From assembly GCF_009914755.1 (NCBI RefSeq), contig NC_060940.1: a stretch of DNA of 64,000 bases. The stretch is one strand, 5' to 3'. The DNA is from the human T2T-CHM13v2.0 reference genome, Homo sapiens. A program made the position numbers and the translations under genes. This document shows, one piece after another, positions 42,767 through 60,776 of the stretch. How positions within the stretch are numbered: the first letter of the stretch is position 1; the number at the start of each line of letters is the position of its first letter. The notes below the pieces were generated by a model that was not told the DNA's origin, did no database searches, and saw nothing but the letters and a program-made list of their open reading frames with translations.

Positions 42767-45700
42767 GAGGACAACCAAGATGGCCCAACAGGAACAGCTC
42801 TGATCTACAGCTCCCAGCATGAGTGACACAGAAGACACAATTTCTCCATTTCCATCTGAAGTACTGGGTTCATCTCACTAGGGAGTGCCAGATAGTGGGC
42901 ACAGGACAGTGGGTGAAGTGCACCCTGCGCAAGCCAAAGCAGGGCAAGGCATTGCCTCACTCAGGCAGCACAAGGGGTCAGGGAGCTCCCTTTCCTAGTC
43001 AAAGAAAGGGTTGACAAACGGCACCTGGAAAATCAGGTCACTCCCACCTGAATACTGCGCTTTTCCAAAGCAGCGCACCAGGAGATTACATCCCACACAT
43101 GGCTCGGAGGGTCCTATGCCCACTTGAGTGTCGCTGATTGCTAGCACAGCAGTCTGACATCAAACTGCAAGGCGGCAGTGAGGCTGGGGGAGGGGCACCC
43201 GCCATTGCCCAGGCTCACTTAGGTAAACAAAGCAGCCGGGAAGCTCGAACTGGGTGGAGCCCACCACAGCTCAAGGAGACCTGCCTGCTTCTGTAGGCTC
43301 CACCTGTGGGGGCAGGGCACAAACAAGAAGACAGCAGTAACCTCCGCAGACTTAAATGTCCCTGTCTGACAGCTTTGAAGAGAGCAGTGGTTCTCCCAGC
43401 ACGCAGCTAAATATCTGAGAACGGGCAGACTGCCTCCTCAAGTGGGTCCCTGACCCCCAAGCAGCCTAACTGGAAAGCACCCCCCCGTAGGGGCAGACTG
43501 ACACCTCACAAGGCCGGGTACTCCTGAGACAAAACTTCCAGAGGAACGGATCAGACAGCAACATTCGCAGATCATGAAAATCCGGGGTTCTGCAGCCACC
43601 ACTTCTGGTACCCAGGCAAACAGGGTCTGGAGTGGACCTCTAGCAAAATCCAACAGACCAGCAGCTGAGGGTCCTGTCTGTTAGAAGGAAAACAAAGGAC
43701 ATCGACACCAAAAACCCATCTGTACATCACCATCAAAGACCAAAAGTAGATAAAACCACAAAGATGGGGAAAAAAACAGCAGAAAAACTGGAAACTCTAA
43801 AAAGCAGAGCACTTGTCCTCCAAAGGAATGCAGTTCCTCACCAGCAATGGAACAAAGCTGGACAGAGAATGACTGACGAGTTCAGAGAAGTCGGCTTCAG
43901 ATGATCAAACTACTCCGAGCTACAGGAGGAAATTCAAACCCAAGGCAAAGAAGTTAAAACCTGAAAAAAGATTTAGATGAATATATAACTAGAATAACCA
44001 ATACAGAGAAGTGCTTAAAGGAGCTGATAGGGCTGAAAGCCAAGCCTCAAGAACGATGTAAAGAATGCAGAAGCCTCAGGAGCCGATTCACTCAACTGGA
44101 AGAAAGGGTATCAGTGATGGAAGATCATATGAAATCAAGCAAGAAGGGAAGTTGAGAGAAAAAAAAGAAAAAAAGAACAAAAAAGGAGAAAAGCCTCCAA
44201 GAAATATGAGACTGTGAAAAGACCCAATCTACGCCTGATTGCTGTACCTTAAAGTGACGGGGAGAATAGAACCAAGTTGGAAAACACTCTGCAGGATATT
44301 ATCCAGGAGAACTTCCCCAATCTAGTAATGCAGGCCAACATTCAGATTCAGGAAACACAGAGAATGCCGCTAAGATACTCCTGGAGAAGAGCAACTCCCA
44401 GACACGTAATTGTCAGATTCACCAAAGTTGAAATGATGGAAAAAACGTTAAGGGCAGCCAGAGAGAAACGTCAGGTTACCCACAAAGGGAAGCCCATCAG
44501 ACTAACAGCTGATCTCTCAGCAGAAACTCTACAAGCCAGAAGAGTAGGGGCCAGTATTCAACATTCTTAAATAATTTTCAACCCAGAATTTCATATCCAG
44601 CCAAACTAAGCTTCATAAGTGAAGGAGAAATAAAATACTTTACAGACAAGCAAATGCTGAGAGATTTTGTCACCACCAGGCCTGCCCTGAAAGAGCTCCT
44701 GAAGGAGGCAGTAAACATGGAAAGGCGCAACAGGTACCAGCCACTGCAAAACCATGCCGAAATGTAAAGACCATCAAGACTACAAAGAAACTGCATCAAC
44801 TAACGAGCAAAATAACCAGCTATCATAATGACAGGATCAAATTCACCCATAACAATATTAACTTCAAATGTAAATGGACTAAATGCCCCAATTAAAAGAC
44901 ACAGACTGGCAAATTGGATAAAGAGTGAAGACCCGACAGTATGCTGTATTCAGGAAACCCATCTCATGTGCAGAGACACAGATAGGCTCAAAATAAAAGG
45001 ATGGAGGAAGATCCACCAAGCAAATGGAAAACAAAAAAAGGCAGGGGTTGCAATCCTAGTCTCTGATAAAAGACTTTAAACCAACCAAGATCAAAAGAGA
45101 GAAAAAAGGCCATTACATAATGGTGAAGGGATCAATTCAACAAGAGCTAGCTATCCTAAATATATATGCACCCAATACAGGAGCACCCAGATTCATAAAG
45201 CAAGTCCTGAGTGACGTATAGACAGTCTACCATTATTATTGTGTGGGAGTCTAACACCCCACTGTCAACATTCCACAGATCAACGAGACAGAAAGTTAAG
45301 ATACCCAGGAATTTAACCCAGCTCTGAACCAAGCAGACCTAATAGACATCTACAGAACTCTCCACCCCAAATCAACAGAATATTTTTTTTTCAGCACCAC
45401 ACCACACCTATTGCAAAATTGACCACATAGTTGGAAGTAAAGCACTCCTCAGCAAATGTAACAAACTCTCTCAGACCACAGTGCAATCCAACTAGAACTC
45501 AGGATTAAGAAACTCACTCAAAACCACTCAACTACATGGAAACTGAACGACCTGCTCCTGAATGACTACTGGGTACATAACGAAATGAAGGCAGAAATAA
45601 AGATTATCTTTGAAACCAACGAGCACAATGACAAGATACCAGAACCTCTGGGACACATTCAAAGCAGTGTGTAGAGGGAAATTTACAGCACTAAATGCCC

Positions 45701-57800: not shown

Positions 57801-60776
57801 GAAAAGCAAGAGCAAACACATTCAGAAGCTAGCAGAAGGCAAGTAGTAAGGTCAGAGCAGAACTGAAGGAAAGAGACCCAAAAAAAAAAAAAAAAAAAAA
57901 AAAAAAAAAAAAAAAAAGAATCCAGGAGCTGTTTTTTTTTTTTTAAAAGATCAAAACTGATCGGCCACTAGCAAGACTAAGAGAAGAATCAAATACATGC
58001 AATAAAAAAATCATAAAGGGGTTGTCACCACTGATCCCACAGAAATACAGACTACCATCAGAGAATACTATGAACACCTCCATACAAATAAACTAGAAAA
58101 TCCAGGAGAAATGGATAAATTCCTCAACACATACACACTACCAAAACTAAACCAGGAAGTTGAATCTCTGAATAGACCAATAACAGGCTCTGAAATTGAG
58201 GCAGTAATAGCTTACCAACCAAAAAAAGTCCAGGACCAGATAGATTCACAGCCGAATTCTACCAGAGATACAAGGAGGAGCTGGTACCATTCCTTCTGAA
58301 ACTATTCCAATCAATAGAAAAAGAGGGAATCCTCCCTAACTCATTTTATGAGGCCAGCATCATCCTGATACCAAAGCCCGGCAGAGACAACAAAAAAAGA
58401 ATTTTAGACCAATATCCCTGATGAACATGAATGCAAAAATCCTCAATAAAATACTGGCAAACCGAATGCAGCAGCACATCAAAAACTTATCCACCATGAT
58501 CAAGTGGGCTTCATCCCTGGGATGCAAGGCTGATTCAACATACACAAATCAAACATAATCCAGCACATAAACAGAACAGCAAAAACCACATGATTATCTC
58601 AATAGATGCAGAAAAGGCCTTTGACAAAATTTGGACAACCTTCATGCTAAAAACTCTCAAATTAGGTATCGATGGGACTTGTCTCAAAATAACAAGAGCT
58701 ATCTATGACAAACTCAGAGCCAATATGATACTGAATGGGCAAAAACTGGAAGCATTCCCTTTGAAAACTGGCACAAGACAGGGATGACCTCTCTCACCAC
58801 TGCTACTCAACAGTGTTGGAAGTTCTGGCCGGGGCCATCAGGCAGGAGAAAGAAATAAAGGGTATTCAATTAGGAAAAGAGGAAGTCAAATTGTCCCTAT
58901 TTGCAGATGACATGATTGTGTATCTAGAAAACCCCACTGTCCCAGCCCAAAATCTCCTTAAGCTGATAGGCAACTTCAGCAAAGTCTCAGGATACAAAAG
59001 TCAATGTGCAAAAATCACAAGCATTCCTATACACCAGTAACAGACAGCCAAATTATGAGTGAACTCCCATTCACAACTGCTTCAAAGAGAATAATACACC
59101 TAGAAATCCAACTTACAAGGGATGTGAAAGACCTCTTCAAGGAGAACTATAAACCACTGCTCAATGAAATAGAAGGATACAAACAAATGGAAGAACATTC
59201 CATGCTCATGGGTAGGAAGAATCAGTATCATGAAAATGGCCATACCGCCCAGGGTAATTTACAGATTCAATGCCATCCCCATCAAGCTACCAATGACTTT
59301 CTTCACTAAATTGGAAAAAACCTTAAAGTTCATATGGAACCAAAGAAGAGCCCACATTGCCAAATCAATCCTAAGGCAAAAAACAAAGCTGTAGGCATCA
59401 CACTACCTGACTTGAAACTATACTACAAGGCTACAGTAACCAAAACAGCATGGTACTGGTACCAAAACAGATATAGATAAATGGAACAGAACAGAGCCCT
59501 CAGTTGTAGATATGTGGCTTTATTTCTATCTGATCTTGGACAAACCTGAGAAAAACAATGGGGAAAGGATTCCCCATTTAATAAATGGTGCTGGGAAAAC
59601 TGGCTAGCCATATGTAGAAAGCTGAAACTGGATCCCTTCCTTACACCTCATACAAAAATTCAAGATGGATTAAAGACTTCAACTTTAGACCTAAAACCAT
59701 AAAAACCCTAGAAGAAAACCTAGGCATTACCATTCAGGACATAGACATGGGCAAGGACTTCATGTCTTAAACACCAAAAGCAATGGCAACCAAACCAAAA
59801 TTGACAAATGGGATCTAATTAAAGTAAAGAGCTTCTGCACAGCAAAACAAACTACCATCAGAGTGAACAGGCAACCTACAGAATGGGAGAAAATTTTTGC
59901 CAGCTACCCATCTGACAAAGGGCTAATATCCAGAATCTACAGAGAACTCAAAATTTACAAGAAAAAAAAGTCCCCATCAAAAAGTGGGCAAAGGATATGA
60001 ACAGACACTTCTCAGGAGACATTTATGCAGCCAACAGACATGAAAAAATGCTCATCACTGGCCATCAAATGCAAATCAAAACCACAATGAGATACCATCT
60101 CACCAGTTAGAATGGCAATCATTAAAAAGTCAGGAAACAACAGGTGCTGGGGAGGATATGGAGAAATAGGAACACTTACACTGTTGGTGGGACTGTAAAG
60201 TAGTTCAACCATTGTGGAAGTCAGTGTGGCGATTCCTCAGGGATCTAGAACTAAAGATACCATTTGACCCAGCTATCCCAATTACTGGGTATATACCCAA
60301 AGAACTATAAAACATGCTGCCATAAAGACACATGCACAGATATTTATCGCAGCACTATTCACAATAGCAAAGACTTGGAACTAACCCAAACGTCCAACAA
60401 TGATAGACTGGATTAAGAAAACGTGGCACATATACACCATGGAATACTATGCAGCCATAAAAAATGATGAGTTCATGTCCTTTGTAGGGATGTGGATGAA
60501 GCTGGAAACAATCATTCTCAGCAAACTATGGCAAGGACAAAAAACCAAACACAGCATATTCTCACTTATAGGTGGGAGTTGAACAATGAGAACACATGGA
60601 CACAGGAAGGGGAACATCACACACTGGGGCCTGTTGTGGGGTGGAGGGAGGGGGAGGCATAACATTAGGAGATACACCTAATGTTAAGCAAGTTAATGGG
60701 TACAGCACAGCAACATGGCACATGTGTATTTATGTAACAAACCTGCATGTTATGCACATGTACCGTAAAACTTAAA
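54827..60776 (+). mobile_element. LINE-1, L1PA3/PA4-like, full length and inactive; ORF1 ~55822-56798, ORF2 ~56863-60582, both disrupted; inserted in a MIR
   Basis: GGGGGGAGGAGCCAAGATGGCCG start, ORF2p fragments, G-rich 3'UTR; TSD ATTATTGCCATCT (54814-54826) / ATTATTGCCATTT (60777-60789); flanks rejoin into a MIR core. Confidence 0.95.

What the first reader, a model, noticed from the sequence alone, without database searches (positions are those of the whole stretch)
42767..60776. Young L1s riddled with 2-17 bp microhomology deletions, often at the same positions in both copies
Copy 2 spans 5950 nt against ~6.15 kb expected, with no large gap. Versus recalled consensus, both copies lose TT in GACT[TT]GACG (43871/55934), 4 nt in ATGAATGAAATG, 5 nt in TTAAAGAAAAGAATT (~44567/~56603), and CA in GACACAAC at two sites. 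They also share C<->G changes (42846/54913, 44383/56421, 47382/59414), yet keep different subfamily diagnostics. Alus and MITEs show the same erosion. Established: 2-5 bp repeat/microhomology deletions are the TOP1 transcription-associated (ID4) signature. Inference: a high context-determined deletion rate; short-tract gene conversion between the copies is the alternative.
Basis: partly seen in the sequence, partly recalled or inferred. Interest (0 to 1): 0.72.

Follow-up and report, generated by a model that had tools for sequence, protein, structure and literature searches.

The report
Germline deletion hot zone behind SNX29
Two ape-age LINE-1 copies just past the end of the human SNX29 gene carry about 14 times more 2-5 base deletions than sister copies elsewhere, plus extra C-to-G changes and three tiny in-place inversions, marking a local germline mutation hot zone that is likely driven by topoisomerase nicks and error-prone break repair in transcribed DNA.

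Summary
Real. Against 34 other L1PA copies from the same genome (152.8 kb), the two L1s hold 37 and 45 deletions of 2-5 bp (14x, CI 10-20), deletions of 6 bp or more at 9x, insertions at 4x and 1-bp deletions at only 2x. Age-matched, non-CpG substitutions are 2.5-2.7x and C<>G 4-6x. Six deletions are shared exactly, but unrelated copies hit the same sites as often, shared substitutions are near chance and subfamily diagnostics stay apart. Recurrence at hot contexts is therefore favoured over gene conversion. Alus and a unique-sequence inverted duplicate in the window show the signature more weakly, so it belongs to the locus (at least 55 kb), not to L1. The deletion spectrum equals the ordinary germline ID-TOP1-like spectrum, amplified; the cause (TOP1, oocyte breaks, forks) is inferred, not shown. 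Regional germline hot zones and a variant cluster at SNX29 are known; this combination was not found in ten literature searches.

The parts
42767..48507 (+). L1PA copy 1, 5'-complete, inserted in the A-rich linker after an Alu left monomer (about 42645-42766); last ~250 nt lost, joined to an antisense Alu monomer
   Evidence: 37 deletions of 2-5 bp in 5.83 kb; groups with L031-L034, terminal branch 0.068 vs 0.021-0.024
54827..60776 (+). L1PA copy 2, full length, slightly older subfamily, no poly(A) tail before the target-site duplication
   Evidence: 45 deletions of 2-5 bp in 6.06 kb; branch 0.078 vs 0.029-0.038 for L035, L036, L002
54814..54826 (+). 5' target-site duplication of copy 2 (partner 60777-60789, 12 of 13 identical)
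45224..45254 (.). microinversion 1 (31 nt, 29-30 of 31 match the reverse complement of the local L1 sequence)
46935..46957 (.). microinversion 2 (23 of 23, in place); its junction pattern occurs once in the genome
59502..59527 (.). microinversion 3 (23 of 26, in place)
   Evidence: found with reference L035 only
43872..43876 (+). shared 2-bp deletion (partner 55937); allele in 39 genomic places vs 3040 intact
44126..44132 (+). shared 4-bp deletion (partner 56182); allele pattern in 5 places including copy 2
44567..44573 (+). shared 5-bp deletion (partner 56605); allele in 122 places vs 4803 intact
45629..45633 (+). shared 2-bp deletion (partner 57676); allele in 16 places vs 5412 intact
46347..46351 (+). 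shared 2-bp deletion (partner 58387); in none of the control copies
47140..47144 (+). shared 2-bp deletion (partner 59174); also in 3 of 32 controls
5956..6926 (.). single-copy 390-bp inverted duplication in SNX29's last intron (arms 5956-6343 and 6538-6926); arms differ by 18 substitutions (5 C<>G) and 5 gaps totalling 13 nt: the same signature in non-L1 DNA

Best explanation
The DNA at and behind the 3' end of SNX29 has mutated far faster than the rest of the genome since these two L1 copies inserted (14x 2-5 bp deletions, 4-6x C<>G, three microinversions), likely because transcription through this zone loads it with topoisomerase 1 nicks in the germline, some of which would become gaps or breaks mended by error-prone synthesis. 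Shown: the excess, its spectrum, its presence in non-L1 DNA, its strand bias, and recurrence of the same deletions in unrelated L1 copies. Inferred: (1) paired TOP1 cuts with strand realignment give the 2-5 bp losses at short repeats and microhomologies; (2) break or gap repair gives C<>G, longer deletions, insertions and template-switch inversions; (3) SNX29 read-through is the source of the stress. The L1s act as passive dated recorders. That the zone is real: about 0.9. The mechanism as stated: about 0.45.
For: Fold by size: 1 bp 2.0, 2 bp 14.6, 3 bp 21, 4-5 bp 9.9, 6 bp or more 8.8, so this is not homopolymer slippage. 34 of 82 deletions of 2-5 bp are 2 bp (41%), the share Reijns et al. 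give for de novo germline deletions (PMC8866115, passages). 67 of 85 lie in short repeats or microhomology against 24 expected; TN*T at 58 of 61 sites against 52.9 expected, p=0.02. Substitution excess other than C<>G is strand-biased: 195 vs 96 expected at + strand purines, 97 vs 87 at pyrimidines, p=1e-6, and the two copies are the most asymmetric of 36. Alus at 12.30-12.66 Mb (SNX29 body to 47 kb past its end) hold 32 deletions of 2 bp or more in 36 Alus; 12.68 Mb, 12.72 Mb and other chromosomes hold 2 in 17 (summed, grouped after seeing the data). Three microinversions against none of 20 nt or more in about 154 kb.
Against: TN*T and repeat context are as strong in controls (51 of 53 vs 45.5; 62 of 75), so nothing singles out TOP1 here. 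The L1s lie 17-35 kb outside the annotated gene, and no germline transcription data were available. The classic transcription asymmetry A>G vs T>C is not significant (2.14 vs 1.87, p=0.55) and C>G vs G>C is symmetric (34 vs 32); the G>A/G>T bias could equally be cytosine damage on the minus strand or fork polarity. C<>G and inversions are not part of ID-TOP1 as described in the passages seen. Substitutions do not cluster next to the deletions. Alu counts are small: S/Y-type only, 17 in 5.2 kb vs 1 in 1.6 kb, p=0.053, or vs 1 in 2.4 kb, p=0.010. Controls were BLAST-ranked hits, which may favour well-kept copies.
Confidence: 0.45

Rival explanations
1. The zone is an extreme spot of the oocyte C>G-enriched (CGER, process 6/7) type: non-programmed double-strand breaks in ageing oocytes, repaired by end joining at microhomologies and by error-prone homology-directed synthesis, produce all the lesion classes without a special role for TOP1.
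For: C<>G 4.2x and 5.9x age-matched; deletions of 6 bp or more 9x, insertions 4x; microinversions, which Potapova et al. attribute to break repair (PMC8755829, passages). Chromosome 16 holds such regions (Goldmann preprint, passages), and maternal non-crossovers carry 37% C>G (PMC11922761, passages).
Against: Gao et al. found C>G associated with deletions of 5 bp or more but not with indels under 5 bp (PMC6511033, passages), whereas 2-3 bp deletions are the most raised class here. C>G shows no strand bias. Three L1s from distal 9p and 3p hold 0, 3 (one of them selected for) and 6 deletions of 2-5 bp; that these places are CGERs is recalled, not checked. CGER coordinates were not found in the supplements searched.
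Confidence: 0.3
2. Replication trouble (fork stalling or collision at the end of a 600-kb gene facing the convergent CPPED1) causes template switches and short deletions in dividing germ cells or embryos.
For: Template switching is the standard model for in-place microinversions (PMC7954356 and 10.1101/2021.11.26.470150, passages). A 390-bp local inverted duplication sits in the same zone. Strand bias fits fork polarity. Tumour CNV breakpoints are enriched in the SNX29 variant cluster (PMC7976700 Table S4 row).
Against: 1-bp indels, the usual slippage product, are the least raised class (2x). Alus nearest the CPPED1 end (12.68 Mb) show 1 deletion in 6.
Confidence: 0.15
3. Short-tract gene conversion between the two L1 copies, 12 kb apart, copied some deletions from one to the other. 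This would explain the sharing only, not the excess.
For: 6 exact shared deletions against 0.85 expected from length and class alone. Two shared alleles are rare elsewhere (15 of 5427; 4 other places). One shared site lies in a 48-nt identical tract, 97th percentile.
Against: Deletions of unrelated copies coincide with copy 1 in 7 of 70 and with copy 2 in 10 of 70 cases, like 6 of 45 and 6 of 39 between the copies (Fisher p 0.76 and 1.0; by unique site 0.32 and 0.76). Shared derived non-CpG substitutions number 7 among 221 and 230, about 4-5 expected by my estimate. The other five tracts are 2-21 nt (random median 14). Two shared alleles recur in 37 and 121 other places. Only 1 of 80 diagnostic columns is swapped.
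Confidence: 0.1
4. The copies are older than they look, the erosion is intrinsic to these L1s, or it is an assembly error.
For: CpG decay is about doubled too (12 of 43 and 10 of 40 kept vs 24-31 of 42-43 and 13-23 of 42-43). No reads or ape orthologues were seen.
Against: Diagnostics and the tree place copy 1 with the youngest control group. The oldest controls, of equal divergence, have at most 2.0 such deletions per kb. Per non-CpG transition the ratio is 82/176 against 75/1551. Non-L1 DNA shows the signature. Sequencing error would favour 1-bp homopolymer indels (general knowledge).
Confidence: 0.04

Closest known systems
ID4 / ID-TOP1 germline deletions (Reijns et al. 2022, PMC8866115; passages and Discussion seen)
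   Same: 2-5 bp deletions at short repeats and microhomologies, 41% 2-bp, TN*T motif
   Different: Here a single locus at 14x, outside the annotated gene body, together with C<>G, longer deletions, insertions and inversions; TOP1 dependence untested
Maternal C>G-enriched regions / process 6/7 (Goldmann preprint 10.1101/140111; Seplyarskiy PMC9217108; Palsson PMC11922761; passages seen)
   Same: Regional germline hypermutation with a C<>G excess on chromosome 16, beside a long gene
   Different: Defined on substitutions; indels under 5 bp were reported not associated (Gao 2019). No C>G strand bias here; sex and age effects unknown
Short-range template-switch mutations / microinversions (Walker 2021 PMC7954356; Potapova 2022 PMC8755829; passages seen)
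   Same: 23-31 nt in-place reverse-complement replacements
   Different: Three in 11.9 kb against 59 definite events genome-wide on the human-chimp path; flanking inverted repeats only 0-3 nt; no row at this place among the Walker S2 rows seen (18 of 83 chr16 rows)
Variant hotspot cluster 'chr16.p13.12' overlapping SNX29 (Long and Xue 2021, PMC7976700; passages and Table S4 row seen)
   Same: SNX29 already flagged as overlapping one germline variant cluster covering 8% of the gene
   Different: Cluster coordinates and variant kinds are in a dataset not seen, so identity with this zone is unproven; no spectrum or mechanism in the passages seen

Membership tests
ID-TOP1 (ID4) | 2-5 bp deletions dominate | tested here: met
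   82 of 108 deletions; 14x vs 2x for 1 bp
ID-TOP1 (ID4) | at short tandem repeats or microhomology | tested here: met
   67 of 85 vs 24 expected; controls 62 of 75
ID-TOP1 (ID4) | TN*T motif | tested here: inconclusive
   58 of 61 vs 52.9, p=0.02; A-rich L1 gives little room; controls alike, 51 of 53 vs 45.5
ID-TOP1 (ID4) | high germline transcription or TOP1 activity at the site | not testable with these tools
   17-35 kb past the SNX29 end; only indirect strand bias
ID-TOP1 (ID4) | dependence on TOP1 / RNase H2 | not testable with these tools
   needs experiment
CGER / process 6/7 | C>G enrichment | tested here: met
   4.2x and 5.9x vs about 2x for transitions
CGER / process 6/7 | C>G raised on the non-transcribed strand | tested here: inconclusive
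   34 C>G vs 32 G>C, p=0.62; transcription direction here unknown
CGER / process 6/7 | maternal origin, maternal-age effect, clustering | not testable with these tools
   no trio data
CGER / process 6/7 | inside published region coordinates | not tested
   coordinates not in the supplements searched
Template-switch microinversion | in-place reverse-complement match of 17-33 nt | tested here: met
   29-30/31, 23/23, 23/26 vs best forward 17-18, 10, 13
Template-switch microinversion | flanking inverted repeats | tested here: inconclusive
   0-3 nt by reading
Non-allelic gene conversion | shared substitutions and identity tracts with the shared indels | tested here: not met

The most novel reading that the evidence does not exclude
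The tail of SNX29 is one of the strongest natural germline mutator zones in the human genome: one transcription-coupled process there yields TOP1-type deletions at over 10x, C<>G changes and template-switch inversions at over 100x, joining three signatures so far treated as separate; and thousands of dated L1PA copies can serve as built-in dosimeters to map such zones genome-wide.
Probability: 0.3. Interest if true: 0.82.

Novelty: new variant of a known kind. Interest (0 to 1): 0.63.

Why it matters
2-5 bp deletions are the largest class of de novo human indels (33% in Reijns et al.) and are often frameshifts, yet regional germline rate maps are built on substitutions. A locus with a more than tenfold deletion rate, C<>G excess and microinversions gives a testable place to ask whether TOP1 damage, oocyte breaks and template switching share a cause. 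It also warns that repeat ages and neutral-rate estimates at such loci are off by 2.5x or more.

Tried and rejected
No L1 match in the plasmid or phage collections. No second young L1 in five neighbouring chr16 stretches, so the zone's edges rest on Alus. Substitutions do not cluster at deletions. Deletions show no locus-specific strand bias (A-only 44, T-only 6; controls 39 and 2). Among the places listed, no other copy carries both hot deletion alleles (100 of 122 listed). Dropped before counting: four anchor-private or subfamily indel stretches, five sites carried by over 15% of controls (one of them also in copy 1), three calls inside microinversions, and an Alu 2-bp deletion near position 55 shared by several Alus. 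Ten literature searches found no description of this deletion zone. PMC7237693, PMC6138700 and 10.64898/2026.06.24.734375 (passages) had nothing on it. Jonsson et al. 2017 was not seen. Unseen supplements that may bear on novelty: Long and Xue Dataset S1, Potapova tables, Walker S1 data, CGER coordinate lists.
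Full report
What is there. The window is human chr16:12,586,001-12,650,000. Two sense-strand L1PA copies lie 17 and 29 kb past the SNX29 end: copy 1 at 42767-48507 and copy 2 at 54827-60776. As controls I used 35 other L1PA copies from the same genome: 29 from a whole-element search and six full-length ones picked from 5' searches. One serves as alignment anchor, leaving 34 scored; three more were added later. 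Copy 1 groups with L031-L034 (support 1.0) and copy 2 with the older L035/L036/L002/L003 set; terminal branches are 0.068 and 0.078 against 0.021-0.038, with the older L003 at 0.066. The names L1PA3-5 and ages of about 15-20 million years are recalled, not from a call.

The excess. With two different real copies as anchors the counts agree. After local realignment and removal of subfamily sites and inversion artefacts, 2-5 bp deletions number 37 and 45 in 11.9 kb against 75 in 152.8 kb (14.1x, CI 10.1-19.5). Six subfamily-matched full-length copies hold 0, 4, 3, 0, 2 and 2. Deletions of 6 bp or more number 13 against 19 (8.8x), 1-bp deletions 13 against 84 (2.0x), and insertions run at 2.2 against 0.53 per kb. 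Deletions are spread evenly along both elements. Against matched copies, non-CpG substitutions are 2.7x and 2.5x, transitions about 2x and C<>G 4.2x and 5.9x. CpG decay is roughly doubled. Greater age cannot explain this: the oldest controls have equal divergence but at most 2.0 such deletions per kb.

Spectrum. 67 of 85 deletions of 2-5 bp sit in short repeats or microhomologies (24 expected) and 58 of 61 such sites fit TN*T (52.9 expected, p=0.02), but controls behave alike. The 2-bp share, 34 of 82, equals the 41% reported for de novo germline deletions (PMC8866115). The locus therefore amplifies the ordinary germline 2-5 bp process, which Reijns et al. ascribe to TOP1; the spectrum cannot by itself prove TOP1 here. 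Apart from C<>G, the substitution excess falls on + strand purines (195 vs 96 expected; pyrimidines 97 vs 87; p=1e-6), strongest for G>A, A>C and G>T. A>G/T>C and C>G/G>C are symmetric. This points to a directional process, transcription or fork polarity, without saying which.

Three clusters of apparent indels are in-place microinversions: 45224-45254, 46935-46957 and 59502-59527. Controls gave one 13-nt hit and none of 20 nt or more in about 154 kb (chance of 3 of 3 falling in the two copies is about 4e-4, my arithmetic). The third was found with one reference only, so sensitivity is imperfect. The second allele is unique in the genome. Potapova et al. count 59 such events of 17-33 nt on the whole human-chimp path and Walker et al. 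4017 template switches among great apes; scaled to 11.9 kb these give roughly 0.02 or fewer. No row at this place appeared among the Walker S2 rows seen (18 of 83 chr16 rows, jumping from 11.49 to 13.42 Mb), so the events may predate the human-gorilla split or have been filtered.

Shared lesions. Six 2-5 bp deletions are exactly shared, against 0.85 expected from length and class, and a few more are near-shared. But deletions in unrelated copies coincide with copy 1 in 7 of 70 cases and with copy 2 in 10 of 70, the same rate as between the two copies (6 of 45, 6 of 39). Genome-wide pattern counts show hot sites: 39 deleted vs 3040 intact and 122 vs 4803. Shared substitutions (7) are near chance, identity tracts are 2-48 nt (random median 14), and diagnostics are not exchanged. 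Against this reading, two shared alleles are rare elsewhere (16 vs 5412; 5 places), so conversion or a sharper local site preference at one to three sites is not excluded.

Extent. A single-copy 390-bp inverted duplication at 5956-6926 has arms differing by 18 substitutions, 5 of them C<>G, and 5 gaps totalling 13 nt (three of 2, 1 and 2 nt seen, two of about 4 nt inferred). Alus carry 32 deletions of 2 bp or more in 36 copies between 12.30 and 12.66 Mb, against 2 in 17 at 12.68 Mb, 12.72 Mb and elsewhere (summed; grouping post hoc; the S/Y-only tests give p=0.053 and 0.010). The zone spans at least window 6-61 kb, seems to fade before the CPPED1 end, and may include more of SNX29. Three L1s from distal 9p and 3p are not eroded like this.

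Mechanism. Best reading, inferred: transcription through and past the 600-kb SNX29 gene loads the DNA with TOP1 nicks in the germline. Realignment gives the short deletions, and nicks turned into gaps or breaks give C<>G, longer deletions, insertions and template switches (0.45). Rivals are oocyte break repair of the CGER type (0.3; but Gao et al. saw no link of C>G to indels under 5 bp), fork failure (0.15), conversion for the shared sites only (0.1), and age or assembly error (0.04).

Known and new. Regional germline C>G zones on chromosome 16, ID-TOP1 and microinversions are each known. Long and Xue list one variant cluster covering 8% of SNX29, with coordinates not seen. Ten searches of the open-access library found no account of a tenfold local 2-5 bp deletion zone with inversions here; subscription papers and several supplements were out of reach. 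Verdict: a real feature, a new variant of a known kind, interest 0.63.

Noticed in passing
window 5956-6926: Single-copy 390-bp inverted duplication with a 194-nt spacer, arms 92% identical, in SNX29's last intron; possible fold-back or template-switch product and a hairpin-prone site.
   Followed up: partly
window 48500-48670: Copy 1's 3' end and the right half of the Alu it entered are missing; the L1 joins an antisense Alu monomer at about 3 nt of microhomology, suggesting a larger deletion.
   Followed up: partly
window 57880-57917 and 57932: A 38-nt poly(A) run and a T run have grown inside ORF2 of copy 2, while its own terminal poly(A) tail is absent.
   Followed up: no
window 46026-46040: 9-nt insertion in copy 1 that looks like an imperfect tandem duplication; L036 has a 15-nt tandem duplication within the segment inverted in copy 1.
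   Followed up: no
window 25946-49815 (Alus): Small insertions look raised in downstream Alus (18 in 14 S/Y-type Alus vs 1 in 6 elsewhere); not checked for alignment noise.
   Followed up: no
window 42356-42610 and 29946-30187: Old L1 3' fragments (75% and 67% identity to L1PA), unrelated to the two young copies.
   Followed up: no
L042 (G000:C3:6261020-6267170): Full-length L1 on distal 3p with 6 deletions, all 4-5 bp, plus two of 6-7 bp and no 2-3 bp ones; mildly raised.
   Followed up: no
window 16001-17000: Strong GC skew (-0.30) with no tandem repeat called.
   Followed up: no
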